A stretch of DNA of 64,000 nt, taken from contig JAYTCK010000021.1 of assembly GCA_043736515.1 (NCBI GenBank), forward strand, positions 3,607 to 67,606, in the 5' to 3' direction. Below, piece after piece: positions 40,821 through 61,983 of the stretch; the stretch's first letter is position 1, and each line of letters opens with the position of its first letter. The translations under genes were made by a program, and so were the position numbers. Below the pieces are notes generated by a model, which was not told the origin of the DNA, made no database searches, and was given only the letters and a program-made list of their open reading frames with translations. This DNA is from a bacterium. GTDB lineage: Bacteria; Patescibacteriota; Minisyncoccia; Phycocordibacterales; UBA6899.

Positions 40821-41222
40821 TTATGAGGTTCCTTCCGATTTCAGCAAATCGCGGATGTCAGTCAATAACTTAACTTCCTCGGACTGCATCTTTTCTTCAG
40901 CAGGCTTTGCTTCCTCTTTTTTCTTAAATTTATTTATCGCTTTGACAACCACGAAAAGTGACCAAGCAATAATAAGGAAGCTGATGATTGCTTGGAGGAA
41001 TTTCCCATAGGCGATTTCGACGCTGTACAGTTCGAGTGAGAGTCGTGCGAGATTTATCTCCCCAGTTACCGCCCCAAAGACGGGCATAATAATATCCCCT
41101 ACCAAAGAGTTAACAATTGTCCCAAACGCTCCACCAATAATAACACCGATCGCAAGATCAATGACATTCCCCCGCATTGCGAATGATTTAAATTCCTGGA
41201 TGACGGACATGTTCTTCATCAT
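40821..41222 (-). CDS. mscL: Large-conductance mechanosensitive channel
   Basis: 133 aa. [38 protein letters not shown] is near-canonical MscL. Confidence 0.85.
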
Positions 41223-45312: not shown

Positions 45313-48300
45313 CTATTTCGTCTTTCTCTTAAAGCGGATGATTATTTCGTGTGAACGCTTGTCGTCCACCATCTTCACCGCTGTGGTGGGGTGTTTTACA
45401 CCATCCTCAAAAATCTCCATTATCTCGTCGTCGCCCTCAATCGCTTCAAATTTCAGGTTGTACTGGGATTTCCCATACGGCAACAGTGCCGACGCGTGAT
45501 TCCAGCCTTTGGGAAAAGATGGTGAAAATGATAACAAATTTCCTTCACGTTTTATTCCGAGGATATATTCACATATTGTCCGATACAGCACCCCTGCTGA
45601 CGCGGTATACCATGTCCAGCCAGCTCGGCCAGGATATGTGGGCGTTGAGTACACCTCCGCAGCTACGACATACGGTTCTCCCTGGTACAGCAAACTCTTT
45701 TCTGCTGTGTCACTTCGCTTGAACGGATTGACGGCATCAACTACCGCCATTCCCCCGTCAGGATCTCCAGACGCAAAAAGCGCTTGCGCAAGCCACAATG
45801 CTGCATGGTTATATTGTGAAGCATTTTCTCGGACACCGGGGGGGTAATCGGAGATTGTTCCCATGTCGAGTAGCGAGCGAGACGATGGTGGCCACGCAAG
45901 TGGAATGTGTCCCTTGGTGATACCAAGTTCGTGCTTTGCAGACTCTAGTGCCTCAATGCTTTCTTTTGTTTTTCCGTTTGCAAAATATGCCCATGACTGC
46001 GCGACAGAATCGATGCGAAAAGATTTTGCGTGGTTGGTTCCGACAGGCGCTCCCGTATCGGTGAACGCGCGTCGATACCATTTGCCGTCCCAGCCAGATT
46101 TTTGAAGTGCTTCACGATACTCAGTCGCATGGGCACGATAGCGGTTTGCACGGTCACTATCACCGCGCCCTTCGGTAAGGGTGCTCATTTCATCAAGAAT
46201 GGAAATAAGGAACCATGCGAGCCACACACTTTCTCCCTCTCCTTCCACGCCCACACGATTCATGCCGTCGTTCCAGTCTGCTTGTCCCATAAGCGGCAGA
46301 CCGTGCGATCCCGAGGTGAGCGAATGTTCAACAGCACGAATACAATGCTCATACAACGAGCTTTTTTCATCACTTGGCAAGAACACACCAACAATACTTG
46401 GGCGATCCGCCTTGTCAGGAATGTCCCCGGAAAGGTACGGGACTACTTCGTCAAGAATTGCACTATCACCGGTAAATTGAACATACCGCAGGACAACATG
46501 TGGGAGCCACAGATGGGGATCGGAAAGCCGTGTTCGGGCACCGAAATCATTATGAGGTTGCCACCACGAAAGGGCATCTCCTTCTCTGAACTGATGTGCG
46601 GCGGCGGCAAGAATGTGACTCCTCGTCCATGCGCTGTCCAGCCACAGCATAGCGAGCCCATCTTGTAATTGATCACGATACCCATATGCACCTCCAATTT
46701 GGTAAAACCCAAGCCGTGCATGAACGCGTGACGCTATCACCTGCTCTGGAAGAAAGTGGTTGGCGAGTAAAGTAAGAGTGGGGTCGGGGAGGTCGAATTT
46801 TAGAAATGGCGCCATCTCCCATTTGTGTCTTGTTTTTTTGAGCACCTGCTCCGCGTATCCCTTTTCTGTGATCTGAGAAATTGTCTTCTCAAGATCAGCC
46901 ACATTACATTCCCCGAGAAAAAAAGTTGCCTCCTTGCTTTCACCAGGCTCGAGCGACAAGCGCTTCATGAGCACCGCCGCAGGTTCTTCTTCGGAAACAA
47001 TATCACTGGAAAGTCCTATTCGCTTCAGCGCTGCAGGATCGTTAATCGTTCCGTTTCTCCCTAAAAATTCTTCTCGACTAACGGAAAACTCATCGGCGCC
47101 CGTTACGATACCCACAATTGTCCTCTTTTCTACAAATTGATGCCAATAATTCTGGCTGGCTACGAGAGTGTTTCCACTCTGTATTTCAAAAGAAAAATGT
47201 TTTTTTGTTTCTTGAGCCAAGCTTCCCAAAAGCAATTCAAAGTATCCAAAAAGTGAGAGGATTTTATTGTTCCCTGTGTTGTTGGTAAGTTTTACGCGGT
47301 AGTACTTTATCGCCACCCTATCATCAATATACAGCGTCAGCTCAAGCGTTATGCCGAATGCATGGGTCAAATATGTACAGTAGTTTATTCCATAACGGAT
47401 TTCGTATTCCGCATTTTCCTCACCCAGAAGAGGGAGTGGGCTGGCACATACACCCGTTTCCTCATCACGCAGGTAAATAGCTTCGCTCGTAAATTGAGCA
47501 AGTGGGTCATTATATGGAACAGTGAGTTTGTTGTCATAACTATTTGTTGCCCACGTAAATGACATCCCGCGGTCAGTAGCAAGAAACCCAATATGTGAAT
47601 TCGCGACAATGTGGGACCAAGGGCGGGGGGGCTGAATATTTTTGCCATAAAAAATGACATATTCTTTTTGTGCTTTGTCGTACCCGCCAACGCCGTTAAA
47701 AAACTGCAAGTCATTTTTGTCACGTCTCATAAAAGTCTCGTCGGAGATATCCGGGTCTTTTTGCGTTTCAAGTTTCGGAGGATAAGCATGTGCACCTTTT
47801 CGCTCCAAGAGTGTGATCGCATCTATCAGTGAACCTTTTTTTGCATCAATCACGACGCTTGCTGTGTGGAGCACTGCGGCTCGCTCAATCTCACTTAATT
47901 GCTCCGCCCGCGCATGAAAGACGGTGGAAACACTGCGTTCGTCATGGGAACGATGCATGTTCATAAGAAAATCCACCTCATCTTCAAATGTTTTCAAGTA
48001 TCCTCCAGAATGCTCATTAAATATGACAATATCCACAGGAATTCCTTTTTTCACAAAATAAGCATGGCAACTCAACATTTGCCTCACCATGGGGAGATCG
48101 GTTACTCCCGTAACAGTAAAAAGAATAATAGGACGATTCCCTGAAATACTCATTTTCCATAATGAGAGGACCCATGGACGGGCGTCGCTTTCCACATCTT
48201 TTCCTCGCTTCATTGCGCGTGAAAGTGCTAATGAGGCGAGAGTACTGTACGCATGAGCCTGTGAGGAGCTAATCCCATATTCAGAGAGTAAGCGTCCCCC

Positions 48301-51300
48301 CTCACGATCAGCATTTTTTGCGATTCCACGCGTATTTGCGTAGTTTCGATAGCGCTTCAATCCGGAGAGTACTTCCTCTTTTGATTTCCCCACGAGAGAG
48401 ATGAGCGAGACTCGTCTGGATTCATTGGGTCCGAGAGATATGTGTCCAACAAACGCCGCGACACTATCGAGTGTATGGAGGGGTAACTCCGCGTCTGCGC
48501 GAGTAAAATCCTGCAATATCATCGGAGGCGCTATTTCTTTTTTTGAACCAAAAAATACTTTTTTTTCTCTAATTGCTCGAAGATCCTGTATGGAGTGATC
48601 TGCCGTCAGTAGAAAACCCGCTACAATTTGTCGATTGCGGTCTTCAGGGTCTGGGCGCGAAGCGATGATTACAGAATTTCCCCAATGGACTTCTGTTGCT
48701 ACAAATAAATGCTCGTAATTAGGATGTGCAGATTCAGCATCTTTTTTTGAAAGTGAAAGTTCTGCACACACCCCGAATGAAAGCGACTCATCGCTTTCTC
48801 CGGTATTCGTCAGGGTTAATTCTCGCAATTCCCCCGCTTCCCCCGGGAGTACGGTTGCAACAAGCGATGAGTTAATACTTCCTTCTGATTTTTCAAACGT
48901 TACTGCTTGCTCACTTGCTGCAACTGCGTGTTTATCTCCCGCATCTCTCATTGGCATATACGTCGGAGACCACGTTTTACCGTGCGCTCGATCCCGTAAA
49001 TAAAAGAATGTACCAACGGATTCGCGGAGCATGTCAGCAGATGGACGCGTAATCAGTACATTACCCAAGTAACTCTCCCCCGCGCCTGTCGTCGTGATCC
49101 GAGACGAATATTTGTTACTGGAAAGAAATAGAGAAACTGCCTCATGGGTTTTCCAAGGGAGATATTGTCGCTCTGATTCAATAATTTTTGGCGCACGCCG
49201 AACACTTCTTTTTGGCGGAGCGATAAGATTAATTTCTTCCGCCTCTACGTCTTCGGGCATTTTTTCTTCAAATAATTGCGTTGCGACCTCCATTTCTGGT
49301 TCATGAGCAACCATTTTTTGCACCCATCCATCGGCGAGCGCATTCACAATTGATAAAAGAATGAATCCCTGATGGTGTGCATAATAGATTTGAGCGGGCA
49401 CACCGGGAGCGTCATGATGGTCTCCTCTTTTTCTTGCAGTAAAATCAATTGCGTCATAAAATCCATATCGACCAGATGCTCCGACATGTTCGAGATGTGC
49501 AAAATTCTGAAGTGCTCCCTTCGGATCAAGCGAGAGAGCGAGAGCGCTCGTATACGGAGCGACAACAATCGATTCCGAGAGATCGCGCTTAAAGCCGAGT
49601 GAAGCTTCACCGAATGCCTGATAGTGATAATTCTGAGCGGCATCTTGTCGTGATGAAGCAGATTCACCCATCCCCCAAGGAATCCTGTATTGTTTTGCAA
49701 ATCCGCGGTGAGCGGCAATGGCGCGCCGTGCAGACGTGCCCCAAAAGCTTTCGCGGGGTACATCAAAATAGAGCAGTGTCCCTAAATACTCAAAGAGTGA
49801 GCCTGCCCATGAGGCAACAAGGATATCGCCATTTCCGCTTTTGATTAATTTTCTCCCAAGATATCCCCAATGTTTTTGCGGTACATCCCTCTTGGTAATG
49901 GCAATAATACTGGCTGAGTTTGCTTCAGATGCCAATAGGTCATAAAATGCCTCGTCTAATTTTTCTGTTGTGCTGTTAAACCCGATATGGAAGAGCCCGC
50001 GCTCATTATTATAAAGAAACTTGAAATCCATGTTTTTGACATAGAGACTGGCGCTTGCTGCGCAAACGTGAAGTGACTGCTGAATTTTCTTTGTATTTTT
50101 TTCTGATGCCGAAAGCTGAAAAAGCACCTCCGCATACCATGCGCGGGCGGTTTCTTTCTCGGGACCCGGAAGACTGGAGAGCATGATCGCTTCCTCCATT
50201 TCGACTGACTCAATTTCTCGACGAACAATACCATTGGCCAGTTCATCGATATTTGGCATTCGTTGTAAAATCGATAAAATTCGGAGATAGCATGCATGCA
50301 ACTTGGGATCATTCACTACCGCTGAAACAGCGGGAATCATTGTGTAGCCCAGGAACTGGGAAATAGTATCTCGGTAAACGCTCGCCATCGCCTCCACGTG
50401 TCTAGCGGCAAGAAATACTTCATCGAAACGTTCGGTTTTCCCCTCAAGTCGCAATATTTCAAGTGCATTTCTTGTGCGTACAGAATGATGGATGATTCCA
50501 CTCCACACCAAGTCACCGCCTCGCGCAGTTACGGCATCGTTTCCTGTTTTTTGAATAAGTGTGAGCGATTCTCCAACCGACAGCTTTACCTCCTCAAGTA
50601 GCTTCCGCTCATGACGATCGGTTGAAGCTGCCGTGCTTGTCCGATCACACGCTTCCAAAAGCACATGGAGCTCTGCTTCAAGCCCTTCAAACATAACGTT
50701 GCTGATAATTGGAGCTCGACACGCCTCAAGTAATGCTCCGTGAACCGCGACCAAAGAGAGTGCTAAATTTGCACTATCAACACTTGAAACATAACACGGT
50801 GGGAGAGGAGTAAGTCCCTTTAATTCGTACCAATTAAAAAAGTGTCCTTTGTGGAGTGGCATTTTTTCCATAGTTGCAAAGGCACGGCTTATACGTTCGC
50901 AATATTCAGAGATTGACGAAAGTCCTAACACTCTTCCGCCCGATAGCGAGAGAAGATACATGCCGAGATTGGTCGGTGAAATTCCAAGTCCGTGTGAGTG
51001 ACGCTTACTTGGCGGCTCTTCCTGGAGATGGTCGGGCACAAGCCACTGGTCATTTTTAGTAGGGAGATCAAGAAAAAACCAATGTGTGCGTGCAGCGATT
51101 TTGTGCAAATACAAACGATCACTTTTCGAAAAGACAAAAGTATTTTTATAAGAAAAACTTATTATTGCCGCACAAAATGGCGCACAAAGCCAGACAAAGA
51201 TCCACAGAGTAGCAAGAGGATCGTAAATGCTGCCTCTGTGGAATTCAAAATACACCAGCAGGAGAGCGAGGCAGATACTTTGCCACATAAATGTCATAAA

Positions 51301-54075
51301 AACTGTAACAGAATTTTTTCGCTCTAAAGCCACCGCATAGGCAGTCTGCCACTCAAGCAGTTTCTTTTTTGAAACATATAATCGCCACATACTTCGTGCG
51401 ATTGCGTCGAGGGTGATGATGGCATTGTGGAGGACAAACGCACCAAGAAGAAACGTCTTTGCTGAGGCAACTCCCAGCCCCGCGGCCATTGATTTGAATC
51501 TTGCAAAAAAGCTTACTGTTCTGCGCCAGTTTGTGGTCCGTTCAGTAATGTGGAGCAGCGCCGAAACCAGCTGTCCGGAACCAAGTGCGAGGAGTGCGGT
51601 CATACTCCACAGTGAGACCGCCGTCGGAGAAAATGTTGAAAATACCACAGCAATGACCGCCGTAACAGGGATGAGACTGCGTCGTAGATTGTCAAAAATA
51701 CGATAGCGGGCAATGGGAGAAAATATCTCACCACGTTTTAAAAGCCAGTTAATTATCTGCCAATCTCCGCGAATCCATCGATGCAAACGCTGCATGTGCT
51801 CCCGATAATTCGACGGAAATCCTTCAAAAATATGCGCACCACTCGCGATTCCCACTCGTGCATACAAGCCCTCAAGTAGATCATGCGACAGCACAGTATT
51901 TTCCGGCATACGGTCTGCCATTGTTGTTTCAATAGCATCAATATCGTAAATCCCTTTTCCATAAAATATTCCCTCGTTGAAAAGATCCTGATGGAGATCA
52001 GAAACGAGTGAAGAATATGACTCAATCCCAGGAAAACCACCAAAGAGCTGTGAGAATAAAGACGCCGACCCCTCAGCATGGCGGAGTGCGGTTCGCGGTT
52101 GGATGATACCGTATCCCTCAGTAACTATATTTTTCTCCTTATCAATAACTGGGCGATTGAGTGGATGCTCGATTGTCCCAATAAGTGCTTGAGCTGAATC
52201 ACGAACAAGCTCAGTGTCTTCATCAAGAGTTATGATATAACGCACACCGCCCAAATTCTGTGCCGTCATTTGTGCATCCTCCGCATACGATGTTGTTTTT
52301 CCGCGGAGGAGGCCGTTAAACTCACGAAGCTTTCCTCTTTTGCGCTCCCACCCCATAAATACTTTTTCTGCAGGGTTCCATTTTCGCGACCGGTAGAATA
52401 ATGAAAAACGTGTGGGAAGTGAGGGATAACGCGCATTAAGCAGTGCGATTCCTTCCCGGAGTTCATTAACACTTGCTGCATCATCCGGCATTATTTCTTG
52501 CTCTGCATCCTGAAAATCCATCAAAAGCGCATAAAAAATATTTGCGTCATTGTTTGCAACAAAGTTTGTTTCCATTCTCCGCAGTAATTTTTGTGCAGAC
52601 ACACTGTTCCGAAACATTGATGGCACAACTACAACGGTTTTTCGTAAGCTTCCCACTCCCAAAGTGAGGTCGATGGCAGGCAGGGGCTTGGGCGCGAGAA
52701 GCCGTGTGAGCAAAAAATGAGTGAGTGCAGTCGCTATCTCTGAGGTGAGAACGGGTCCAGCAAGCAACAGGACGAGAAATGGAAGCGGGGCGAGCCCTGT
52801 TGTGACACTTAACAGTAGAAGGATGCCAGTGGCACACACGGTGATGGTGCCAATGAATCCGAGATACACTCTTGTGCTATTTGTAAGTATGAATCTTTGG
52901 ATCACATCAAGTGTTGTGGGTGAATACCCCAGTGCGTGTTCAAGGAGCAGCACACCTTTATCTATAAGGTAATACCCTACATGATAGGATCGTTGTGATT
53001 CATCTTTTTGAAGCTCAAAGGCCTGTCGCGCGAGACGGAGTGCCTCGCGTGCAACCTCGATATCGTGAGTGCTGGTTCCGTCTCCTATACGCGCTATTGT
53101 TCGTCTGTACATTGAGCGGGCATCGTCAGTAAGTAGCAAAAATGTACCGGAGGGATCCTTGGCAAGCACTGCATCCACCATGTTGAGTTCAAGCGAAATT
53201 TTATCCCACCGCACTTGGGCAAGATAGCGCAAACTGGAAATGGCATTTGAAATAATCACTGCCTGTGCTTTCTCAGTACGGGATTTCATTGTGGAAAGTT
53301 GCGCATAACTCGCTCCTTGTTTTGCCAAGGAAAGCTTGAGCCATTTACTTACCATACGCACGTCGCCTTCTTTTCCTGTTTGCGCCAAGCGATGTAAAAG
53401 GTGGAGTCCAAATACTTGCGGAACAATAGTGTACTCAAGAGCGAGCACTGCCGTGAGTTTGCGAAGCCGGAGAGGTGCGTCCTTGCGCAATGATGTACTC
53501 ATGATGCGGAGATACCATCGGTCCGCCTCAGACTTTTCTTGCAGGACAGAAATATTTATGTTGATGAGCCTCCGCAAGTCCTCGATAAGCGCGAAGGAGA
53601 GCATACTGGGAAAGACATCAAGCTCGCGCAAAGAGAGCGGAGTACTTTTTTGATATGCTTTTAAAAATTCTATAAGTATTTCACGATCAATACGAGCACC
53701 GGTTTCTTTCACCAGTGCGCGAGCAATCATATACACACGCGGCTGTTTTGCCCCTTCGGTGTCTGTTGATTGAGGTATCCGAAACGTTATTTTTTGTTTC
53801 CAATTCGCGAGCAGTTCGGCTAACGCACCTTCGATAATGTAGAAATTATCAAGGAGGACTTCGATTCCCTGAGTGGCCTGTACACGTTCATTGAGATTAA
53901 AAAGGAGCTCGCGATACGCAGAGCGCGTGCTCATAAGTGTTTTTCTTGCCTTGTGAGCAAAAAACAACGTCCGACGTTCATCGAATGAGAGTTGCGCTGA
54001 TAATGCGAGGTCCTTTGCAAGACGATCGATACCACGCGCCGATGAACGACCGGAACGCATTCCAACCATATGCAC
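45313..54075 (-). CDS. Cyclic beta-1,2-glucan synthase (Cgs/ChvB/NdvB)-like giant multidomain protein
   Basis: 2920 aa (8763 nt). Cytoplasmic N-terminal region, then TM helices (aa ~400-465 and 780-1000). GT-A like domain (aa ~470-775) with ITLDEDTEL and HRWIRGDWQ motifs. YVSSVDSANLA motif. C-terminal ~900 aa with GH94 glycoside-phosphorylase-like pattern (DGMNRVGVEGEGESVWLAWF...), ending in the typical GH94 beta-sandwich tail. Confidence 0.8.
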   Translation of the reverse strand: MHMVGMRSGRSSARGIDRLAKDLALSAQLSFDERRTLFFAHKARKTLMSTRSAYRELLFNLNERVQATQGIEVLLDNFYIIEGALAELLANWKQKITFRIPQSTDTEGAKQPRVYMIARALVKETGARIDREILIEFLKAYQKSTPLSLRELDVFPSMLSFALIEDLRRLININISVLQEKSEADRWYLRIMSTSLRKDAPLRLRKLTAVLALEYTIVPQVFGLHLLHRLAQTGKEGDVRMVSKWLKLSLAKQGASYAQLSTMKSRTEKAQAVIISNAISSLRYLAQVRWDKISLELNMVDAVLAKDPSGTFLLLTDDARSMYRRTIARIGDGTSTHDIEVAREALRLARQAFELQKDESQRSYHVGYYLIDKGVLLLEHALGYSPTTLDVIQRFILTNSTRVYLGFIGTITVCATGILLLLSVTTGLAPLPFLVLLLAGPVLTSEIATALTHFLLTRLLAPKPLPAIDLTLGVGSLRKTVVVVPSMFRNSVSAQKLLRRMETNFVANNDANIFYALLMDFQDAEQEIMPDDAASVNELREGIALLNARYPSLPTRFSLFYRSRKWNPAEKVFMGWERKRGKLREFNGLLRGKTTSYAEDAQMTAQNLGGVRYIITLDEDTELVRDSAQALIGTIEHPLNRPVIDKEKNIVTEGYGIIQPRTALRHAEGSASLFSQLFGGFPGIESYSSLVSDLHQDLFNEGIFYGKGIYDIDAIETTMADRMPENTVLSHDLLEGLYARVGIASGAHIFEGFPSNYREHMQRLHRWIRGDWQIINWLLKRGEIFSPIARYRIFDNLRRSLIPVTAVIAVVFSTFSPTAVSLWSMTALLALGSGQLVSALLHITERTTNWRRTVSFFARFKSMAAGLGVASAKTFLLGAFVLHNAIITLDAIARSMWRLYVSKKKLLEWQTAYAVALERKNSVTVFMTFMWQSICLALLLVYFEFHRGSIYDPLATLWIFVWLCAPFCAAIISFSYKNTFVFSKSDRLYLHKIAARTHWFFLDLPTKNDQWLVPDHLQEEPPSKRHSHGLGISPTNLGMYLLSLSGGRVLGLSSISEYCERISRAFATMEKMPLHKGHFFNWYELKGLTPLPPCYVSSVDSANLALSLVAVHGALLEACRAPIISNVMFEGLEAELHVLLEACDRTSTAASTDRHERKLLEEVKLSVGESLTLIQKTGNDAVTARGGDLVWSGIIHHSVRTRNALEILRLEGKTERFDEVFLAARHVEAMASVYRDTISQFLGYTMIPAVSAVVNDPKLHACYLRILSILQRMPNIDELANGIVRREIESVEMEEAIMLSSLPGPEKETARAWYAEVLFQLSASEKNTKKIQQSLHVCAASASLYVKNMDFKFLYNNERGLFHIGFNSTTEKLDEAFYDLLASEANSASIIAITKRDVPQKHWGYLGRKLIKSGNGDILVASWAGSLFEYLGTLLYFDVPRESFWGTSARRAIAAHRGFAKQYRIPWGMGESASSRQDAAQNYHYQAFGEASLGFKRDLSESIVVAPYTSALALSLDPKGALQNFAHLEHVGASGRYGFYDAIDFTARKRGDHHDAPGVPAQIYYAHHQGFILLSIVNALADGWVQKMVAHEPEMEVATQLFEEKMPEDVEAEEINLIAPPKRSVRRAPKIIESERQYLPWKTHEAVSLFLSSNKYSSRITTTGAGESYLGNVLITRPSADMLRESVGTFFYLRDRAHGKTWSPTYMPMRDAGDKHAVAASEQAVTFEKSEGSINSSLVATVLPGEAGELRELTLTNTGESDESLSFGVCAELSLSKKDAESAHPNYEHLFVATEVHWGNSVIIASRPDPEDRNRQIVAGFLLTADHSIQDLRAIREKKVFFGSKKEIAPPMILQDFTRADAELPLHTLDSVAAFVGHISLGPNESRRVSLISLVGKSKEEVLSGLKRYRNYANTRGIAKNADREGGRLLSEYGISSSQAHAYSTLASLALSRAMKRGKDVESDARPWVLSLWKMSISGNRPIILFTVTGVTDLPMVRQMLSCHAYFVKKGIPVDIVIFNEHSGGYLKTFEDEVDFLMNMHRSHDERSVSTVFHARAEQLSEIERAAVLHTASVVIDAKKGSLIDAITLLERKGAHAYPPKLETQKDPDISDETFMRRDKNDLQFFNGVGGYDKAQKEYVIFYGKNIQPPRPWSHIVANSHIGFLATDRGMSFTWATNSYDNKLTVPYNDPLAQFTSEAIYLRDEETGVCASPLPLLGEENAEYEIRYGINYCTYLTHAFGITLELTLYIDDRVAIKYYRVKLTNNTGNNKILSLFGYFELLLGSLAQETKKHFSFEIQSGNTLVASQNYWHQFVEKRTIVGIVTGADEFSVSREEFLGRNGTINDPAALKRIGLSSDIVSEEEPAAVLMKRLSLEPGESKEATFFLGECNVADLEKTISQITEKGYAEQVLKKTRHKWEMAPFLKFDLPDPTLTLLANHFLPEQVIASRVHARLGFYQIGGAYGYRDQLQDGLAMLWLDSAWTRSHILAAAAHQFREGDALSWWQPHNDFGARTRLSDPHLWLPHVVLRYVQFTGDSAILDEVVPYLSGDIPDKADRPSIVGVFLPSDEKSSLYEHCIRAVEHSLTSGSHGLPLMGQADWNDGMNRVGVEGEGESVWLAWFLISILDEMSTLTEGRGDSDRANRYRAHATEYREALQKSGWDGKWYRRAFTDTGAPVGTNHAKSFRIDSVAQSWAYFANGKTKESIEALESAKHELGITKGHIPLAWPPSSRSLLDMGTISDYPPGVRENASQYNHAALWLAQALFASGDPDGGMAVVDAVNPFKRSDTAEKSLLYQGEPYVVAAEVYSTPTYPGRAGWTWYTASAGVLYRTICEYILGIKREGNLLSFSPSFPKGWNHASALLPYGKSQYNLKFEAIEGDDEIMEIFEDGVKHPTTAVKMVDDKRSHEIIIRFKRKTK

Positions 54076-54195
54076 TAACTATAGCACTCAAGGGCACGAA
54101 AGCAACGCATGTCAATCACCAAAAATTCATCATTCTTTTGGCAAGAGTACTGAAGAGCTAGTATGAGCCTCATGCTCGTGTACGCAACCATGAAA

Positions 54196-54226
54196 AAAGA
54201 CCCTCTCACCGAGGGTCTTTTTCTGT
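54196..54226. terminator. Bidirectional rho-independent terminator between the GH gene and the Cgs-like gene
   Basis: aaaaaagaccctc-tcacc-gagggtcttttt. Confidence 0.6.
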
Positions 54227-54270: not shown

Positions 54271-57200
54271 CTAGTAGACAACTGTCTTGAATGCATTAAT
54301 TTTTATATCTCCAGTGCCATGTACTGCCTCACTTCCAAATTCTATTGAAGCGAGGTACTCCGAGCCTGAGATATGTCCACGTGACTGTAGGTAATTGAAG
54401 AGAGGCTTGAACTCAAGTGAGCCTACTGGCATTGGGTCGAGCATTTGGAATACGAGGAATCCCCAATTCAACGGCCCAAAGTTATCTGCACGATAAAATG
54501 CATAACGCACTCCATCAATAGTGATATTCTCTCTAAACCATGCAGGATTTCTATCAAGACCGTACCCTCCATATGGCACAAGCGCAACCATTATTTCATG
54601 AGTAATTGGTGCTGAGAGGAATCCGGGGCGGTACACTCCGTCACGAGTGAGCCAAAGGTCAAAGGTAAGTTGCCCTGTTCCCGTGGTCACATTCGTTGTG
54701 TTCCATGTACTGCGCGCTGATGTAATCGAGCTGAGGGGGCGTGCAAGTGTAGATCCGGGAGTTGATTGAAATCCAGGTTTCTGTCCGAAGATGATGGAGG
54801 GCCATCCCTTCACCTCGTTTGGACCGTCAGGCCACTGCCAAGTGAAGCGAGCAGTCATGGAGCCATCTGCAGTGAGTCCTGCTGTTCCTGTGCACTGCTC
54901 AAACCATCCCCAGACTCCTTGTTTGCCCCATTGATCATTCAAGAGTTTATATGAACCTACATCATTAATATTTCCATCGTTGCAATTAACAGGAATATTA
55001 CTTATTGGCGCAACCCATCCGCCAGTTGCGGGGGCGGGCGACGGAGCAGGAGCGGGCGTAAATGCAGCTTCCCATGTTGTCCCGTTCCAGTTATACCAAG
55101 CGCCCGCCGTATTCTGATGTGAGATAGTTGTTCCATCATATTTGACCTTGGCGGTGTTTGCAGTAAATCCTGCGTTGGCGCCATTACGTTTGACCTCTCC
55201 ATTCACTACCGTCCATGTATTTCCTTGGACGTCCCTGATACTCGTCGCGGGAGGAATGGTGACTTCAAGTGGATTGGTGGTTCCCACCCATCCTGCACCA
55301 TCCCATGACCACCATCCACCCGCAGAGTTCTGATGGTAGATTGTTGTTCCATTGAAGTGGAGCTTGGTGACGTTTGCAGTGAAGTTTGCATTGACGCCAT
55401 TGCGTTGTACGGTGCTATTCACGATTGTCCACGTATTCTTTGTAGCATCGATAATGTTTGCTGCTGGTGGAACGGTGGTTCCTGCGGGAGAGGTGACGGC
55501 TGTTGGTGTTGCGCCCCCCGTTGGGTTTCCTGTTGCCACCCACGTTACTCCATCCCATAGCCACCATCCTCCAGCTGAATTTTGTTGGAACACTGTTGTT
55601 CCGTCAAAATAGAGATTTGTGACATTGAGACTGTAGCCTGCATTGACTCCGTTGCGCTTCACTACACCCAGGGCGACTGTCCACGTATTCTTTGTAGCAT
55701 CAATAATGCTTGTCGCGGGAGGAATGTTGGTGCCTTTTGGTGAGGTGGTGACGGTACTAGCCGTTGTGGCTGTTGTTGTTTGAGCCACAGGACCCGACAG
55801 CACACTCAATGATGGTGTGTACGCCGAAACTCCACCTGAGGTAGTCATGGCGCGTACGCGATACGTATAGAATGTCGAAGAAACGAGTCCTGCATTGATA
55901 AAGGTTGTTCCTGTGTTTGTTCTGATTTGCGTGAACGTCGTACATCCCATTCCCTGACAGCGCTCAATGAAATAGCCATTCGCTCCAACAGTTGCGTTCC
56001 ATGTGAGTGTAATTTCGGAAGGCGTCACTAGGGTGACACGCAGTCCCGTAGGAGTTGGAAGAGTTGGTGCGGGTGCGGGTGCGGGAGTTGGTACAACAGC
56101 TCCCATTGGATTGGTTGCGGTATATACCCATCCTGTTCCGTCCCATGAATACCACTGTGCGGAAGTATTCTCATGGAATATGGTGGTTCCATTAAAGTAG
56201 AGCTTGGTTGCATTGGCGGTAAAGCCCGCATTGACTCCGTTGCGCTTCACTACACCCAGGGCGACTGTCCACGTATTCTTTGTAGCATCAATAATGCTTG
56301 TTGCAGGAGGAACTATTGTTCCTGCGGGAGAAGTGACGAGTGTAGGGTCTGGAGCTGGGGCGGGAGTAGGAGTAGGAGTTGGAGTAGGAGTAGGGGTAGG
56401 GGCCGAAGACTGCGAAGAAGGATGCCACCAATTCCCTGAAGCGACGATTAGACTGAGAATCTGCAACTCGTTTGAATAGTAGCCGCCAGAAATATTTGGA
56501 CTCATGCGGCCCCAAAGAGTGTTCAGCATATCCTGATATACAGGATCCACCATGGCACCAGCTGTATTTGGACCAGCGAACGAAAAGTCAACATACCCTG
56601 CATTAGTGAGAGGCGTACCATCGAGCTTAAAGCCACCTCGAAGATAATTAGGATTACCGCCTGGAGATTGTTGCATAAAGTTCATGATCTTCATCGTCAC
56701 GTTCTTACTGCGCGCATCACCCGAGGTCACATAGTCTGCGGCCAATCTGAATGGAATACGGTTGGAATTCCAGTCATAGTAGCCTTCAACGCAAGATCCG
56801 TCGCCTCTGCAATTTGTAGAAGGATTGGGGTTGCTGGGAAGACCTTGAATAAATCCAGGAACCAGACCTGTGTTCGGCGCGAAGTTCGTCTGCATCACGT
56901 TAAAAAGTTCAAAGGATTTATTGATAGCTAGATCCCAGAATGGATCACCCGTTGCTTCTTTATAGGTGCGGAAATGACCTATCATATAGTCGGAAGGTCG
57001 CGAAAGATCTTGGTGCGCTTGGCGACCATCTGCAGCAAAATTAAACTTTTTTATCGCGTTGATCGTTCTAATGGCCTCTGCCCTGTAGTTAATAGGGCCA
57101 GCGGATCCCCACTGTACGTCAGCCATGAGCAGTGCCTGCGCAATATCCATGTCGCCGTCTGACGCGTTCCACCCGCCGCCGTAGCTGCCGCACTGGTGGT

Positions 57201-58044
57201 TGATCGCCCATTCCATCAGCGCAGGATCTCTGCTGTAGGCCGGATGAGCACGTGCGAACCGGAAAAGTGAATCAAACTTGTTGCGTGCGTCAGGGTCATG
57301 TCCCGCCATGATGACGGTTATTAACATTCCGTATGAGATTCCCTCCGATACTACTAATTTGTTGGCATCAGGACTAAATCTGACGTATAAATTACCACCG
57401 CAGGTGCCTAGAGCTGTTGCGGCCCATTGATTGTACAGATTCTTGACCGCATTATCCTGATTTGCCTGCGACACATTATTTGGTCGAATACCTGCGATAT
57501 AGGAGGCTTTGTGAGAACCAAATAGGTAACCGCTTCCTGAAGCAGGAGAAGTTGCGGGAGCTCCTGTATCGGTTGAGAGCGTTGGGGATGACAAAGGACT
57601 ACTTACCGTCCCTGAAACTACGGAAAATGTTTTAGGTGTCACATAGAGATAGGTCGTAGCCCACGTAGAATTCCAAACTCCCACCTGCATGGTATACGTG
57701 CCAGGGGGCAGATTTACGGGAGATTGGTAGTCATATATGAACTTTACATTTGTCCCCGCTGGGATACTTGCGCCCGCAAAGTTCTTCCTGGAGATAAGGT
57801 TATTACTGGAGTTATAAATACGGATTTCAACAATAAGATTGGAGAGGCTTGTTGCTGAATGAATTGTTGCACTAGTGTTTTGAATAGCTCCGGCAGTTAG
57901 CGGATTTTTTGAAACTGAAGAACTCACGAGGGTAACTGAGGCTGTTTGTGCAGCTGCAGTTTGCAATCCTGTAAAAAAGAGTCCTGCGATAACGACGAAA
58001 ATGGAAAGCAGCGTGAGGCTAACTGATCCGCGATAAGTATTCAT
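54271..58044 (-). CDS. Secreted multidomain glycoside hydrolase: signal peptide, beta-sandwich, GH8, PT-linker, ~75-aa repeats and FN3, C-terminal GH12
   Basis: 1257 aa. Signal peptide. GH8 catalytic SEGISYGM plus a perfect PROSITE GH8 signature ASDGDMDIAQALLMADVQW (aa ~293-311). PTPTPTPTPTPAPAP linker. Five IIDATKNTWTV..RNGVNA..GTT..WWSWDG..W repeats. FN3 (LTWNATVGANGYFIER..YTYRVRA). C-terminal GH12 (LNDQWG, WQWPDGPNEVKGWPS, nucleophile HEIMVAL, acid/base IEFGSE). Confidence 0.75.
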   Translation of the reverse strand: MNTYRGSVSLTLLSIFVVIAGLFFTGLQTAAAQTASVTLVSSSVSKNPLTAGAIQNTSATIHSATSLSNLIVEIRIYNSSNNLISRKNFAGASIPAGTNVKFIYDYQSPVNLPPGTYTMQVGVWNSTWATTYLYVTPKTFSVVSGTVSSPLSSPTLSTDTGAPATSPASGSGYLFGSHKASYIAGIRPNNVSQANQDNAVKNLYNQWAATALGTCGGNLYVRFSPDANKLVVSEGISYGMLITVIMAGHDPDARNKFDSLFRFARAHPAYSRDPALMEWAINHQCGSYGGGWNASDGDMDIAQALLMADVQWGSAGPINYRAEAIRTINAIKKFNFAADGRQAHQDLSRPSDYMIGHFRTYKEATGDPFWDLAINKSFELFNVMQTNFAPNTGLVPGFIQGLPSNPNPSTNCRGDGSCVEGYYDWNSNRIPFRLAADYVTSGDARSKNVTMKIMNFMQQSPGGNPNYLRGGFKLDGTPLTNAGYVDFSFAGPNTAGAMVDPVYQDMLNTLWGRMSPNISGGYYSNELQILSLIVASGNWWHPSSQSSAPTPTPTPTPTPTPAPAPDPTLVTSPAGTIVPPATSIIDATKNTWTVALGVVKRNGVNAGFTANATKLYFNGTTIFHENTSAQWYSWDGTGWVYTATNPMGAVVPTPAPAPAPTLPTPTGLRVTLVTPSEITLTWNATVGANGYFIERCQGMGCTTFTQIRTNTGTTFINAGLVSSTFYTYRVRAMTTSGGVSAYTPSLSVLSGPVAQTTTATTASTVTTSPKGTNIPPATSIIDATKNTWTVALGVVKRNGVNAGYSLNVTNLYFDGTTVFQQNSAGGWWLWDGVTWVATGNPTGGATPTAVTSPAGTTVPPAANIIDATKNTWTIVNSTVQRNGVNANFTANVTKLHFNGTTIYHQNSAGGWWSWDGAGWVGTTNPLEVTIPPATSIRDVQGNTWTVVNGEVKRNGANAGFTANTAKVKYDGTTISHQNTAGAWYNWNGTTWEAAFTPAPAPSPAPATGGWVAPISNIPVNCNDGNINDVGSYKLLNDQWGKQGVWGWFEQCTGTAGLTADGSMTARFTWQWPDGPNEVKGWPSIIFGQKPGFQSTPGSTLARPLSSITSARSTWNTTNVTTGTGQLTFDLWLTRDGVYRPGFLSAPITHEIMVALVPYGGYGLDRNPAWFRENITIDGVRYAFYRADNFGPLNWGFLVFQMLDPMPVGSLEFKPLFNYLQSRGHISGSEYLASIEFGSEAVHGTGDIKINAFKTVVY

Positions 58045-58267: not shown

Positions 58268-58900
58268 TTATATCAGCGGACACCACAAGCCTGCCTGAGG
58301 TGCGTCGAGCAGTACTCTTCCGGCACCAATATGCTCAAGTGGATTTTCTCCCTCCTTCAAGTGAAGAATTTGCAGATGTGTCTGGTCTATTCCTGAGCTG
58401 CCAAAAAACGGAAGGGCTAGGCTTCCTGAAAGCGCGAGTTCTTCACCCGGACCAAACTGGTGAACATACCAATTGTGTGCCGCATTACCGGGAAAAAGCA
58501 CTCCCGCCGCGCCGCTCGTATTGAGAAACTCCTGAGCGGTGATTACGAGAAGGTTGCGGTAGGTACGCTTACTTGTATTTTTAATATGAACCGTAAAAGA
58601 CATAGTGCCCCCTGAAAAATAAAGTGGGTAATTCCCAAAGTACCTTGTCGGAAGAATAGTTTGCTCGAACACTGGAAAAAAACCGAACGGTGCATAGGTA
58701 ATCCCTGTGGCACTCGCTGTTGTTACACCAAGTGAGCCATGATATTCGACACTATATTCAATAGGTGTAACTTCTCCAATATGCTTTCCATCATGAGGGG
58801 GCAAAAGAGGATAAACCGTTTGAGCACTAGAGATGCCGGGAAAAAGTATGCATGTTGCTAATCCGGCACATAAACCGAGAAGTATTTTATTTGTACGCAT
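58268..58900 (-). CDS. Secreted hypothetical protein
   Basis: 210 aa. Signal peptide MRTNKILLGLCAGLATCILFPGISSAQT. Co-oriented and immediately upstream of the GH8/GH12 gene. Confidence 0.5.
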   Translation of the reverse strand: MRTNKILLGLCAGLATCILFPGISSAQTVYPLLPPHDGKHIGEVTPIEYSVEYHGSLGVTTASATGITYAPFGFFPVFEQTILPTRYFGNYPLYFSGGTMSFTVHIKNTSKRTYRNLLVITAQEFLNTSGAAGVLFPGNAAHNWYVHQFGPGEELALSGSLALPFFGSSGIDQTHLQILHLKEGENPLEHIGAGRVLLDAPQAGLWCPLI

Positions 58901-59188
58901 AAGTTAATTGTGCACAAAGAAAAGCGTCAGAGCAATACACGGGGTGTGGAGTAATCCCATTAAATTTTTATGGAAGGAGTGTCAATCGTGTTCATGACCT
59001 CATCGATGGCTGTGGTGCATCTGTCGACAAGGTTACTTCCTACGGTACTGCACACACCAAAAATGTTGAGGAACTTTCCCGGTAGGAAGCGGGACAGCTG
59101 AGTGAGAAGGCGACTTGGGGCGACAAAGCTGCCTCAGGACCACTTCCTCTTGGTGTTCCTACTATCGCGCCATATAATAAAGAGAGTT

Positions 59189-60400
59189 ATGACACGATAT
59201 AAATATAAGGCTCAGCTCTCAAGCGGCAGAATCACAAGCGGGCTTTCCGATGCTGCCGATGAAAAAGAGCTTTCTGATAATCTGAAAGCAGAAGGAACAT
59301 TCCTTATCACTGCCCGGGTATTTGGAGATAATGAGTGGGATATGGATAGGATAAATATCATCCTTTCCCGGGTTTCTCTCCGTGAAAAAATACTATTTGC
59401 TCGCAATCTCTCCCGGATGATCAAGGCGGGATTATCTATTTCTCGCGCACTCGAGATATTAAAAAAACAGACGGAAAATCTCCAGTTTAAAGAAGTCATC
59501 CAATCCCTGAAGAACGAAGTAAAAAATGGCACCGCTTTCTCAGACGCATTAGCAAAACATCATAAAATTTTTCCCAACGTATTTATTGCCATGGTCCGCG
59601 CAGGTGAAGAATCAGGCGGGATAGTGGAGGCCCTTCGCGTGATTGCTTCCCACATGGAGAATTCTTATACTCTCAGAAAAAAGATGCGGAGCGCGATGAC
59701 CTATCCCGTCATGGTATTCGTGGTGATGATCGTCGTCGCCATATTAATGATGATCTATGTTGTACCCGGACTCGCGTCGACATTCAAGGAAGCGAAGGCA
59801 GAGCTGCCCGCAATGACAAAGTTTATTATTGCTATCAGTGAATTTTTGCAGAATTATTATTTACTTACAGCGGGGATTACGGTGCTCACCGGAGGCGTGT
59901 TTTGGATGTTTAAGCAAACCTCATTCGGGAATCATCTGCTGACATGGCTCATCCTGCGCGCGCCCACGTTTGGAAAATTGGTACGGGAGTACAACGCCGC
60001 AATGACCACACGCACCCTCTCGTCGCTCATGGTGGCAGGGGTGAGCATCGTGCGTGCACTAGAGATCACTCAGGATGTGATGACCAACGTCTACTACAAA
60101 GAAGCGCTCGAACAAGCGCGACGCGACGTGCAAAACGGTATTCCGCTTTCCCGTGTATTTATCAATAACAATATTTTTCCGACGATGGTGGGTGACATGA
60201 TGGAAGTGGGCGAAGAAACGGGTGATTTTTCCGGTATGCTTCTTGAGATCGCACTCTTCTACGAAGAAGAGGTCAATGCGTCCACCGCAGACATGGCGAA
60301 GCTCGTTGAACCCATGCTCATGATAATCATCGCTGTATTTGTGGGTGTCTTTGCTGTAGCAATGTTGACGCCAATGTATTCTCTCGTAAACAATATATGA
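59189..60400 (+). CDS. pilC: Type IV pilus assembly platform protein PilC / T2SS GspF family
   Basis: Two GspF repeats (ISRALEILKKQ..., VRALEITQDV...) and three TM segments. Start trimmed to MTRYKYKAQ. Putative promoter TTGGTG-17-TATAAT at ~59150-59180. Confidence 0.85.
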   Translation: MTRYKYKAQLSSGRITSGLSDAADEKELSDNLKAEGTFLITARVFGDNEWDMDRINIILSRVSLREKILFARNLSRMIKAGLSISRALEILKKQTENLQFKEVIQSLKNEVKNGTAFSDALAKHHKIFPNVFIAMVRAGEESGGIVEALRVIASHMENSYTLRKKMRSAMTYPVMVFVVMIVVAILMMIYVVPGLASTFKEAKAELPAMTKFIIAISEFLQNYYLLTAGITVLTGGVFWMFKQTSFGNHLLTWLILRAPTFGKLVREYNAAMTTRTLSSLMVAGVSIVRALEITQDVMTNVYYKEALEQARRDVQNGIPLSRVFINNNIFPTMVGDMMEVGEETGDFSGMLLEIALFYEEEVNASTADMAKLVEPMLMIIIAVFVGVFAVAMLTPMYSLVNNI

Positions 60401-60428
60401 TGTTTTTTATCGACTTTGAAAAACCTGC

Positions 60429-60911
60429 ATGTTGATCCGTCACGCACAGCGAAAAGGTGGCGTCACACTCTTGGAGATCATCGTTATCATCAGCACCATG
60501 GCGACACTGAGCGGGCTTACCGTCACTACCTTTGCCGATTTCCGCGCACGAAAATCGTGTGATGCGGCCGTTGCACAAATACTTTCAGCATTAAGTTCTG
60601 CGCATTTTGATACTGTTACCGCAAAAAATGATCTTGAATACGGGATACAATTGCGTGCAAAAGATTATATTCTCTTTTCTGGAAACACTGCTCCCGCATC
60701 GGATACTGACCCCCGAGTACTCTTGCGAGCAGCCCTCCCGGGAAATACAGAAATTACTAATATAAACCTAAGCGGTGGGGGTAGCTACGTTTTTTTTCAA
60801 CGACCGAGCGGCACAACTCCCCAAAGTGGCACATTTACTATACGCTCCACAAGCAAATCGAGCATATTAACCACAGCGACCATACATAAAACAGGTGCGG
60901 TTTCGATTTGA
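60429..60911 (+). CDS. Type IV pilin-like protein (prepilin N-terminal methylation domain)
   Basis: QRKGG^VTLLEIIVIIS shows Gly-1, Glu+5 and a hydrophobic helix. Confidence 0.7.
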   Translation: MLIRHAQRKGGVTLLEIIVIISTMATLSGLTVTTFADFRARKSCDAAVAQILSALSSAHFDTVTAKNDLEYGIQLRAKDYILFSGNTAPASDTDPRVLLRAALPGNTEITNINLSGGGSYVFFQRPSGTTPQSGTFTIRSTSKSSILTTATIHKTGAVSI

Positions 60912-60930
60912 TACCCTGAGAAGTTTACTT

Positions 60931-61455
60931 ATGAATTTATTTTATTTTCACCAGAAAAGTTTTCTCCACAAATCGCTCACAAAGCGGGGCTTCAGCATTC
61001 TCGAGGTTGTGGTGACAACAGGAATTCTTTCTGTTTTGTTTGTGACAATTTCGCACCACCATAAAAAAATAGTCGATGTGGGTTATCTCACCACGCGCTC
61101 GATCCAAGCTAATTTCCTTCTCGAGGAAGGCATGGAAGCAGTAAAATCGCTCCGTGACGAAAGCTGGTCTTTGAAAATTGCCGGTTTGAGCATAGGAACA
61201 CCGTATTATTTATACTGGAGTGGAACAAAGTGGACATCCACCACAACGCCCCAGATGATCGAAAATACCTTTACTCGAACATTTACTGTTGCAAGCACAA
61301 CCCGTGACGTTAATTATGACATTGTGCAATCGGGAGGAACCAACGACCCCGGGACTCGGAAAGTAACAATTAAGGTTTCCTGGAACGCTTTACTTTCTGG
61401 CGAACTGACTTTGGTGAAGGTCGACGGATATATCATGAATATTTTCAGCAACTAA
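60931..61455 (+). CDS. Type IV pilin-like / pseudopilin
   Basis: TKRG^FSILEVVVTTGIL prepilin motif. Start trimmed to MNLFYF. Confidence 0.65.
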   Translation: MNLFYFHQKSFLHKSLTKRGFSILEVVVTTGILSVLFVTISHHHKKIVDVGYLTTRSIQANFLLEEGMEAVKSLRDESWSLKIAGLSIGTPYYLYWSGTKWTSTTTPQMIENTFTRTFTVASTTRDVNYDIVQSGGTNDPGTRKVTIKVSWNALLSGELTLVKVDGYIMNIFSN

Positions 61456-61457
61456 CC

Positions 61458-61973: not shown

Positions 61974-61983
61974 TGACAAACCC

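What the first reader, a model, noticed from the sequence alone, without database searches (positions are those of the whole stretch)
45313..54075. 2920-aa cyclic beta-1,2-glucan synthase-like giant protein in an otherwise minimal housekeeping genome
This single gene occupies 8.8 kb, about 14% of the window. It combines a multi-TM, GT-A glycosyltransferase core (LDED, HRWIRGDWQ), the YVSSVDSANLA motif seen in Cgs proteins, and a C-terminal GH94-phosphorylase-like domain. That architecture matches ChvB/NdvB/Cgs, best known from Rhizobiales, where cyclic glucans mediate host interaction and osmoadaptation. Such a large polysaccharide machine is striking in a genome that is otherwise reduced and salvage-dependent and carries type IV pili. 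If this is an episymbiont, the product could be a host-interaction or envelope glucan.
Basis: partly seen in the sequence, partly recalled or inferred. Interest (0 to 1): 0.7.

Follow-up and report, generated by a model that had tools for sequence, protein, structure and literature searches.

The report

Summary
Window 45313..54075 (-) is one uninterrupted 2920-codon ORF. It aligns along its whole length with the cryo-EM-solved A. tumefaciens Cgs (8rf0/8rf9, E=0, 1394 bits). The order is N-terminal domain, 2 TM, GT84, 4 TM, cyclase (GH189), then GH94 phosphorylase. Every residue shown experimentally to matter is present: the GT84 Asp and RW motifs, the primer Tyr, both cyclase Glu residues and the GH94 catalytic Asp. 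There are no lineage-specific indels of 8 aa or more. The host contig is Patescibacteria: ArgRS and PilC, on either side of the gene, have best hits in Lloydbacteria and Parcubacteria. About 19 CPR homologues (49-66% identity) form their own clade. A second CPR-like clade (about 36%) is its sister, and both lie apart from all other phyla (about 32%). GC content and codon usage are native, so a chimera, contamination or recent HGT is unlikely. No conserved neighbour appears at any locus. No ABC protein carrying both motifs is encoded in the window or in the flanks of the CPR loci. The route of the product in a cell without a periplasm, and its role, are therefore unknown. Verdict: a new member of a known kind. 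It is under-annotated publicly and I found no paper discussing it. It is moderately interesting.

The parts
45313..54075 (-). cgs ORF, 2920 codons plus stop (GTG 54075; the public record starts at ATG 54069)
   Evidence: 8rf0/8rf9 E=0, 1394 bits
52876..54075 (-). N-terminal scaffold domain (aa 1-400), homologous to the Atu Cgs NTD
   Evidence: HMMER alignment starts at aa 48 = Atu chain residue 48; no Pfam model hit
52711..52866 (-). TM helices 1-2 (about aa 404-455)
   Evidence: Kyte-Doolittle peaks at 418-436 and 433-451
51676..52710 (-). GT84 glycosyltransferase domain (aa 456-800). Key residues: D520, R578, D618-x-D620, primer Tyr Y687, catalytic base D732, R766-W767, R769
   Evidence: Alignment to 8rf9 (chain numbering = native minus 19) read; residues from PMC10901819; conservation in a 39-sequence alignment, with D520->G in P0021/22 and D620->E in P0011
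51160..51675 (-). TM helices 3-6 (about aa 801-972)
   Evidence: Hydropathy peaks at 802-822, 864-893, 923-941 and 954-972; aligned to the Atu TM region
49210..51159 (-). Cyclase / transglycosylase domain (GH189; aa 973-1622). Key residues: S1097, D1100, acid/base E1384, nucleophile E1471
   Evidence: 8wy1 (T. italicus cyclization domain) E 8.6e-86; alignments; residue roles from PMC11842490; PF10091
45316..49209 (-). GH94 phosphorylase domain with supersandwich and inserted subdomain (aa 1623-2920). Key residues: R2467-D2468, catalytic acid D2603, ENxxxYxH His2757
   Evidence: PF06165 and PF17167; alignments to 8rf0 and to cellobiose phosphorylases
54193..54222 (-). Terminator-like hairpin (GACCCTC-GGTGA-GAGGGTC followed by T6) between the upstream glucanase gene and cgs. 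It suggests that cgs is a separate transcription unit
   Evidence: Read from the sequence; the + strand version was listed by the scan

Best explanation

The mechanism is inferred by homology to the A. tumefaciens and T. italicus enzymes. The protein is anchored by six TM helices, with all soluble domains in the cytoplasm. The GT84 domain uses UDP-glucose to glucosylate its own Tyr687 and extend a beta-1,2 chain. The GH94 domain trims the chain by phosphorolysis, releasing Glc-1-P. The central GH189 domain (E1384 acid/base, E1471 nucleophile) cuts the chain off by intramolecular transglycosylation and releases a cyclic glucan of roughly 17-25 residues into the cytoplasm.

Shown here: the architecture, the conservation of every known functional residue, native composition, and CPR-specific clades. 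Inferred: enzymatic activity and product. Unknown: export and physiological role. Osmoadaptation or host interaction are the roles known elsewhere.
For: - Full-length colinear match to solved Cgs: 8rf9/8rf0 E=0, 1394 bits, stretches 48-1124 and 1315-2863.
- The cyclization domain matches 8wy1 at E 8.6e-86.
- Residues mapped one by one to PMC10901819 and PMC11842490: D520=AtD527, R578=AtR586, D618/D620=AtD624/626, Y687=AtY694, D732=AtD739, R766/W767=AtR773 RW, R769=AtR776; S1097/D1100=AtS1101/D1104; E1384=AtE1300=TiE1356 and E1471=TiE1442; D2468=AtD2393 and D2603=AtD2528; His motif.
- These residues are invariant in 39 aligned Cgs, including 22 sequences from CPR or CPR-like contigs, apart from three substitutions in other sequences.
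- No clade-specific indels of 8 aa or more.
- Hydropathy is consistent with six TM helices.
- The CPR clade is monophyletic at 49-66% identity, against about 32% to other phyla.
- GC is 0.471 and the codon-usage distance is the lowest in the window.
- Flanking ArgRS and PilC have Patescibacteria/Lloydbacteria best hits, and PilC lies on the same 68,245-bp contig as the Cgs protein.
- The closest GTDB genomes are two Lloydbacteria MAGs at 66%.
Against: - No biochemical data exist for any CPR Cgs.
- The window holds no UDP-glucose pyrophosphorylase that I recognised and no ABC protein with both Walker A and LSGGQ motifs. Substrate supply and export are therefore unverified.
- The solved Cgs has no export channel of its own (PMC10901819), and CPR cells are thought to lack a periplasm, the compartment where cyclic glucans act in Proteobacteria.
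- NCBIfam has no model that recognises the protein.
- The gene neighbourhood is not conserved in seven independent CPR contexts, so context gives no functional support.
Confidence: 0.85

Rival explanations
1. The enzyme is Cgs-like but makes a different end product in this lineage, for example a linear beta-1,2-glucan that stays protein-bound or is released. Alternatively it makes rings of a different size, used as a cytoplasmic carbon or osmolyte reserve rather than an exported cyclic glucan.
For: No exporter was found in the window or next to any CPR homologue. The organism presumably has no periplasm. The GH94 domain would allow remobilisation as Glc-1-P. In one CPR-like locus cgs is flanked by a PMM-family mutase and a cupin-type glucose-6-P isomerase (L035).
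Against: Both cyclase glutamates and the conserved Asp are invariant, and the cyclase domain is 64% identical within the CPR clade. The T. italicus domain with the same residues makes only cyclic products or disproportionates (PMC11842490).
Confidence: 0.08
2. The gene does not belong to the CPR genome. It would be a misassembled or chimeric contig, bin contamination, or a very recent horizontal acquisition from a proteobacterium.
For: Cgs is best known from Proteobacteria. Another gene in the window, FtsH, looks proteobacterial (800 bits to E. coli FtsH, local GC 0.52), so some foreign DNA may be present.
Against: The gene is bracketed by CPR-type ArgRS and PilC. Its nearest relatives lie on Lloydbacteria/Patescibacteria contigs of 208-256 kb among ribosomal and Mur genes. 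Identity to any non-CPR Cgs is only about 31-34%. GC, GC3 and codon usage are typical of the window. The ORF is colinear with more than 100 full-length homologues.
Confidence: 0.03
3. The protein mainly works catabolically. Its GH94 and GH189 domains would degrade host- or environment-derived beta-1,2-glucans to Glc-1-P for a salvage-dependent cell, with the GT84 part vestigial.
For: CPR bacteria are scavengers. Relatives are annotated 'cellobiose phosphorylase' or 'glucoamylase family protein'. A secreted GH8/GH12 glucanase lies immediately upstream.
Against: The GT84 domain is the best conserved part of the protein: 71% within the CPR clade and 46% to other phyla. Every catalytic residue and the primer Tyr are intact. 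All soluble domains are predicted to be cytoplasmic, and no glucan importer is evident. A terminator-like hairpin separates the glucanase gene from cgs, and the glucanase is absent next to cgs in the relatives.
Confidence: 0.04

Closest known systems
A. tumefaciens ChvB/Cgs (PDB 8rf0, 8rf9; Sedzicki et al. 2024, PMC10901819), and the Brucella Cgs and rhizobial NdvB orthologues
   Same: Same length class (2920 vs about 2800-2830 aa). Same domain order: NTD, 2 TM, GT84, 4 TM, cyclase, GH94 with an inserted subdomain. The same catalytic Asp/RW motifs, primer Tyr, cyclase acidic residues and GH94 catalytic Asp.
   Different: Only about 32-34% identical. The host is a CPR bacterium with a reduced genome and presumably no periplasm. 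No adjacent or in-window ChvA/NdvA-type ABC exporter was found. The physiological role is unknown.
Thermoanaerobacter italicus Cgs cyclization domain (TiCGS-Tg, GH189, PDB 8wy1; Tanaka et al. 2024, as reviewed in PMC11842490)
   Same: The middle domain matches at E 8.6e-86. The acid/base Glu (Ti E1356 = E1384), nucleophile Glu (Ti E1442 = E1471) and Asp (Ti D1127 = D1100) are conserved.
   Different: A different phylum. TiCGS has only been characterised as an isolated domain in vitro.
Soluble GH94 phosphorylases (cellobiose, chitobiose, cellobionic acid; e.g. 8ho9, 3qde, 4zle)
   Same: The C-terminal roughly 780 aa share the fold and the catalytic RD...DWND and ENxxxYxH motifs.
   Different: Much weaker match (179 vs 1394 bits for the whole protein; 98 vs 253 bits on the catalytic segment). 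Those enzymes are stand-alone soluble proteins, whereas here the domain is the C-terminal module of a membrane synthase.
Membrane-embedded GT2 synthases such as cellulose synthase BcsA
   Same: GT-A fold with D, DxD, D and (Q/R)xxRW-type motifs beneath a TM bundle. This relationship was described for Atu Cgs in PMC10901819. Here there is only a sub-threshold PF13632 match.
   Different: Per the Atu structure, there is no transmembrane export channel and no PilZ domain, and the IF1 helix is replaced by the Tyr-bearing primer loop. The query keeps that Tyr.

Membership tests
[quoted passage not shown] | Single polypeptide of about 2800-3000 aa, colinear NTD-TM-GT84-TM-cyclase-GH94 | tested here: met
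   phmmer to 8rf9/8rf0 E=0, covering aa 48-1124 and 1315-2863; no indels of 8 aa or more against 17 non-CPR Cgs
[quoted passage not shown] | GT84 active site: UDP-coordinating Asp residues (At D527, D624/D626), catalytic base (At D739), RW motif (At R773), and R586/R776 | tested here: met
   Query D520, D618/D620, D732, R766-W767, R578, R769. The catalytic base, RW motif, both Arg and D618 are invariant in 39 sequences. D520 is G in P0021/22 and D620 is E in P0011
[quoted passage not shown] | Autoglucosylated primer tyrosine in the IF1-homology loop (At Y694) | tested here: met
   Query Y687 in GIESYSS aligns with GIDPYVF; Tyr is invariant in 39 of 39 sequences. Glycosylation itself is not testable here
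[quoted passage not shown] | Cyclase (GH189) catalytic pair: acid/base Glu (Ti E1356 / At E1300) and nucleophile Glu (Ti E1442), plus the conserved Asp (At D1104) | tested here: met
   Query E1384, E1471, D1100; invariant
[quoted passage not shown] | GH94 phosphorylase catalytic residues (At D2393, catalytic acid D2528) | tested here: met
   Query D2468 and D2603. The ENxxxYxH His2757 motif is shared with Atu Cgs and cellobiose phosphorylases. PF17167 E 6e-87 and PF06165 E 3e-86
[quoted passage not shown] | Six-helix TM anchor (2 before and 4 after the GT domain) | tested here: met
   Crude Kyte-Doolittle scan: peaks at 418-451 (two overlapping) and at 802-822, 864-893, 923-941, 954-972. No dedicated topology predictor was available
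[quoted passage not shown] | Product is a cyclic beta-1,2-glucan made from UDP-glucose | not testable with these tools
   Needs an enzyme assay or complementation
Cyclic glucan system of Proteobacteria (Cgs plus a ChvA/NdvA/Cgt ABC exporter, with or without modifying enzymes) | Dedicated ABC exporter that moves the glucan out of the cytoplasm | tested here: inconclusive
   No ORF of 350 aa or more with both Walker A and LSGGQ motifs in the 64-kb window or in the flanks of any CPR locus. Only 2 of the 25 non-CPR loci had one within 6 kb, so adjacency is not expected, and the rest of the genome is not available
Stand-alone GH94 phosphorylase (cellobiose/cellodextrin/SOGP type) | Soluble protein of 800-1100 aa without GT or TM modules | tested here: not met
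   The GH94 region is the C-terminal module of an uninterrupted 2920-aa ORF. It scores 253 bits to Cgs against 98 bits or less to the soluble enzymes on the catalytic segment

The most novel reading that the evidence does not exclude
Some ultra-small CPR episymbionts (Lloydbacteria-related lineages and a second CPR-like clade) have long maintained a cyclic beta-1,2-glucan machine, although they lack a periplasm and no ChvA-type exporter is visible. The glucan would then have a role or route not seen in Proteobacteria. It could be a cytoplasmic or cell-wall-zone osmoprotectant. It could instead be a host-directed effector or adhesion molecule released by another pathway, analogous to the host-manipulating cyclic glucans of Brucella and Xanthomonas.
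Probability: 0.25. Interest if true: 0.6.

Novelty: new member of a known kind. Interest (0 to 1): 0.4.

Why it matters
Cyclic beta-1,2-glucans are host-interaction and osmoadaptation factors in Brucella, Agrobacterium, rhizobia and Xanthomonas. The enzyme that makes them has only recently been understood structurally.

A canonical, strongly conserved copy in CPR bacteria is notable for three reasons:
- These organisms have roughly 1-Mb genomes and depend on host cells.
- The gene would take up close to 1% of such a genome.
- It is present in only some relatives.

This points to a selectable function, possibly in episymbiont-host contact or in osmotic survival without a periplasm. It is a concrete, cloneable target, testable by complementing a chvB mutant or by a proteoliposome assay.

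It also corrects public annotation. The CPR homologues are labelled 'hypothetical', 'glucoamylase family' or 'carbohydrate binding domain-containing'. The find does not change what is known about how Cgs works.

Tried and rejected
- NCBIfam scan: no hit at E<=0.01.
- Pfam on the isolated GT, NTD and inserted-subdomain segments: only a sub-threshold PF13632 match. The GT84 assignment therefore rests on alignment to the solved Cgs.
- Exact look-up of the window protein's contig: not on record. The organism name had to be inferred from homologues.
- tRNA and Rfam scans of the window: nothing found.
- Promoter and terminator scans around the gene ends: no promoter-like site upstream of cgs, and only weak consensus sites downstream. 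I could not define a convincing -35/-10 pair or a Shine-Dalgarno sequence by eye, so the start codon (GTG 54075 or ATG 54069) is unresolved.
- Conserved-neighbour search: seven independent CPR contexts share no neighbour with the window. The idea that the GH8 glucanase is a functional partner was dropped for this reason, and because of the terminator-like hairpin.
- ABC exporter motif scan: negative, but uninformative.
- Literature searches pairing CPR, Patescibacteria or Parcubacteria with cyclic glucan or GT84 found nothing relevant. There were two incidental CAZyme tables only.
- The FtsH comparison with the CPR-like locus L035 (46% identity) did not help to place that locus taxonomically.
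- Structure prediction was not attempted. The protein exceeds the 1200-aa limit, and sequence homology to solved structures is already decisive.

Full report
**Observation.** Window 45313..54075 (minus strand) is one open reading frame of 2920 codons starting at GTG. It is by far the longest ORF in the window. An identical protein starting two codons later (2918 aa) exists in the public protein collection on a 68,245-bp NCBI contig.

**What the protein is.**
- Pfam recognises the central 'glucoamylase' domain (PF10091, aa 1378-1591). It also recognises two GH94 supersandwich stretches (PF06165) and the GH94 catalytic domain (PF17167, aa 2428-2840).
- Pfam returns only a sub-threshold GT2 hit on the GT region (PF13632, 20 bits). 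NCBIfam returns nothing.
- The decisive comparison is with solved structures. [quoted passage not shown] The match comes in two colinear stretches covering aa 48-1124 and 1315-2863.
- Its middle part matches the isolated cyclization domain of the T. italicus enzyme (8wy1) at E 8.6e-86.
- Soluble GH94 phosphorylases score only about 180 bits.
- A hydropathy scan gives two hydrophobic segments before the GT domain (418-451) and four after it (802-972), as in Cgs.

**Functional residues.** I took the experimentally supported residues from Sedzicki et al. 2024 (PMC10901819) and from the review of Tanaka et al.'s work (PMC11842490). I mapped them through the printed HMMER alignments. The 8rf9 chain numbering is native minus 19, and the 8wy1 chain numbering is native minus 1003.

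| Domain | Reference residue | Query residue |
|---|---|---|
| GT84 | At D527 | D520 |
| GT84 | At R586 | R578 |
| GT84 | At D624/D626 | D618/D620 |
| GT84 | At Y694 (autoglucosylated primer Tyr) | Y687 |
| GT84 | At D739 (catalytic base) | D732 |
| GT84 | At R773 (RW motif) | R766-W767 |
| GT84 | At R776 | R769 |
| Cyclase | At S1101/D1104 (Ti D1127) | S1097/D1100 |
| Cyclase | At E1300 = Ti E1356 (acid/base) | E1384 |
| Cyclase | Ti E1442 (nucleophile) | E1471 |
| GH94 | At D2393 | D2468 |
| GH94 | At D2528 (catalytic acid) | D2603 |

The ENxxxYxH histidine motif shared with cellobiose phosphorylases is also present (H2757). In a 39-sequence MAFFT alignment these positions are invariant, apart from three substitutions in other sequences (D520->G in P0021/22, D620->E in P0011). 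Against 17 non-CPR Cgs there is no clade-specific insertion or deletion of 8 residues or more. The GT84 domain is the best conserved module. By every testable criterion this is a canonical Cgs.

**Whose gene it is.**
- The window is a string of housekeeping genes. It holds MetRS, IleRS, ArgRS and a class-II aaRS, thymidylate and deoxynucleoside kinases, and IMPDH. It also holds GlmS, MurD, an L,D-transpeptidase/carboxypeptidase, UppP, FtsH, NusG and MscL, plus a PilC/pseudopilin cluster.
- ArgRS (17.5-19.2 kb) has more than 120 relatives at 60-80% identity. Where named, they are Patescibacteria, Yonathbacteria, Pacebacteria or Minisyncoccia.
- PilC (59.1-60.4 kb), on the other side of cgs, has best named hits in Lloydbacteria and Parcubacteria. 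It lies on the same 68-kb contig as the Cgs protein.
- The nearest Cgs proteins (49-66% identity, about 19 clusters) are from Candidatus Lloydbacteria, 'Patescibacteria group' and 'Parcubacteria' MAGs.
- The closest species representatives in GTDB are two Lloydbacteria MAGs at 66%.
- These relatives sit on contigs of up to 256 kb among ribosomal proteins, Mur ligases and tRNA synthetases.

**Origin of the gene.**
- A neighbour-joining tree puts the query and these sequences in one clade. A second small clade (P0021-23, about 36% identity) is its sister; its locus also looks CPR-like, with L20/L35/IF3, SmpB and RecG. Both clades stand apart from Proteobacteria, Gemmatimonadota, Bacteroidota, Acidobacteriota, Verrucomicrobiota and Bacillota, at about 32% identity.
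- The tree has no support values and was rooted at the midpoint, so only the clustering is claimed.
- The gene's GC (0.471), GC3 (0.427) and synonymous codon usage are typical of the window.
- Chimeric assembly, contamination and recent transfer from Proteobacteria are therefore very unlikely.
- The distribution looks patchy. At comparable identity levels there are more than 100 ArgRS or PilC clusters but only about 14-19 Cgs clusters. This is an indirect argument, because long genes assemble less often.

**Context.**
- Nothing near cgs is conserved. Seven independent CPR contexts (window, L001, L003, L004, L005, L006, L035) share no neighbour.
- The upstream same-strand gene in the window is a secreted 1257-aa multidomain glucanase. 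A strong terminator-like hairpin at 54193-54222 separates it from cgs.
- No ORF of 350 aa or more in the whole window, or in the flanks of any CPR locus, carries both Walker A and LSGGQ motifs. Only 2 of the 25 non-CPR loci had such a gene within 6 kb. The exporter question therefore stays open.

**How it most likely works.** With an even number of TM helices on either side of the GT domain, and a cytoplasmic nucleotide-sugar substrate, all soluble domains should face the cytoplasm, as in the Agrobacterium structure.
1. GT84 glucosylates Tyr687 and extends a beta-1,2 chain from UDP-Glc.
2. The GH94 module trims over-long chains with phosphate, giving Glc-1-P.
3. The GH189 module forms a glycosyl-enzyme intermediate on E1471, with E1384 as acid/base. 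It resolves the intermediate intramolecularly and releases a cyclic glucan.

The solved enzyme has no export channel, and Proteobacteria use a separate ABC transporter. CPR cells are thought to lack an outer membrane and periplasm (established knowledge, not tested here). Where the glucan ends up, and what it does, cannot be decided from the sequence. It could be a cytoplasmic or wall-zone osmoprotectant, or a host-directed molecule. Weak hints of an osmotic theme are recorded but not relied on: MscL lies 4 kb downstream, and a mechanosensitive channel and a P-type ATPase sit next to cgs in L005.

**Comparison with what is known, and novelty.** The protein is a member of the Cgs family by all sequence-testable defining features. 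It differs from the studied enzymes only in its host and in about 67% sequence divergence. In the paper library I found no article connecting CPR, Patescibacteria or Parcubacteria with cyclic beta-1,2-glucan or GT84. The CPR homologues carry uninformative public names. I rate it a new member of a known kind. It is a solid, somewhat unexpected occurrence that yields a testable hypothesis about CPR envelope or host biology, but it is not a new mechanism.

**Interest: 0.4.**

Noticed in passing
window 54271..58044 (-): The gene immediately upstream of cgs encodes a 1257-aa protein. It has an N-terminal signal/TM segment and a GH8 domain (aa 174-543; E 9e-68 to glucanase 5xd0, with chitosanases next). 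It also has an fn3 domain, about five copies of a roughly 60-aa 'PPATSIIDATKNTWTV...NG' repeat, and a C-terminal GH12-like endo-beta-1,4-glucanase domain (aa 1030-1253, E 1.8e-10 to 2jem). This is a large secreted two-catalytic-domain glucanase in a CPR genome. It is not found next to cgs in the relatives.
   Followed up: partly
window 11472..14939 (-): The 1155-aa IleRS-type tRNA synthetase has a histidine-phosphatase domain (PF00300, E 4e-29, aa 516-673) inserted within the class-I catalytic domain match. This is an unusual insertion or fusion.
   Followed up: no
window 31626..33581 (+): The FtsH here scores 800 bits to E. coli FtsH (7vhp). It scores 585 bits or less to the other FtsH structures listed (7tdo, 4eiw, 2dhr, 2ce7, 4ww0). 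It is only 46% identical to the FtsH of the CPR-like locus L035. Local GC is 0.52 against about 0.47 for the window. It may be a proteobacterial-type FtsH acquired horizontally.
   Followed up: partly
window 54193..54222: A perfect 7-bp GC-rich hairpin flanked by A5 and T6 (AAAAAGACCCTC GGTGA GAGGGTCTTTTTT). It is a bidirectional intrinsic-terminator-like element between the glucanase gene and cgs.
   Followed up: partly
L035 9224..19345; L004 19078..23213; L005 18765..23828: The neighbours of cgs homologues vary but are sometimes sugar- or osmotically themed. In L035 a PMM-family mutase and a cupin-type glucose-6-P isomerase flank cgs. In L004 there are two roughly 600-aa GH130 proteins plus a mannose-P isomerase-type cupin. 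In L005 there is a P-type cation ATPase and a mechanosensitive channel. In the window, MscL lies at 40821..41222.
   Followed up: no
window 24482..25354 (-) and overlapping + strand ORFs: This is the GC-richest stretch of the window (ORF GC 0.58). It holds a 290-aa ORF with no Pfam hit, overlapped by several long opposite-strand ORFs. It is either compositionally odd or a low-complexity protein.
   Followed up: no
window 59102..63696 (+): A type IV pilus-like cluster: PilC (T2SSF, E 2e-60), a GspH-like pseudopilin, two further small ORFs and a 594-aa ORF without a Pfam hit. Other ORFs with no family match: 8609..10516 (635 aa), 15011..15766, 25579..26283 and 58268..58900.
   Followed up: no
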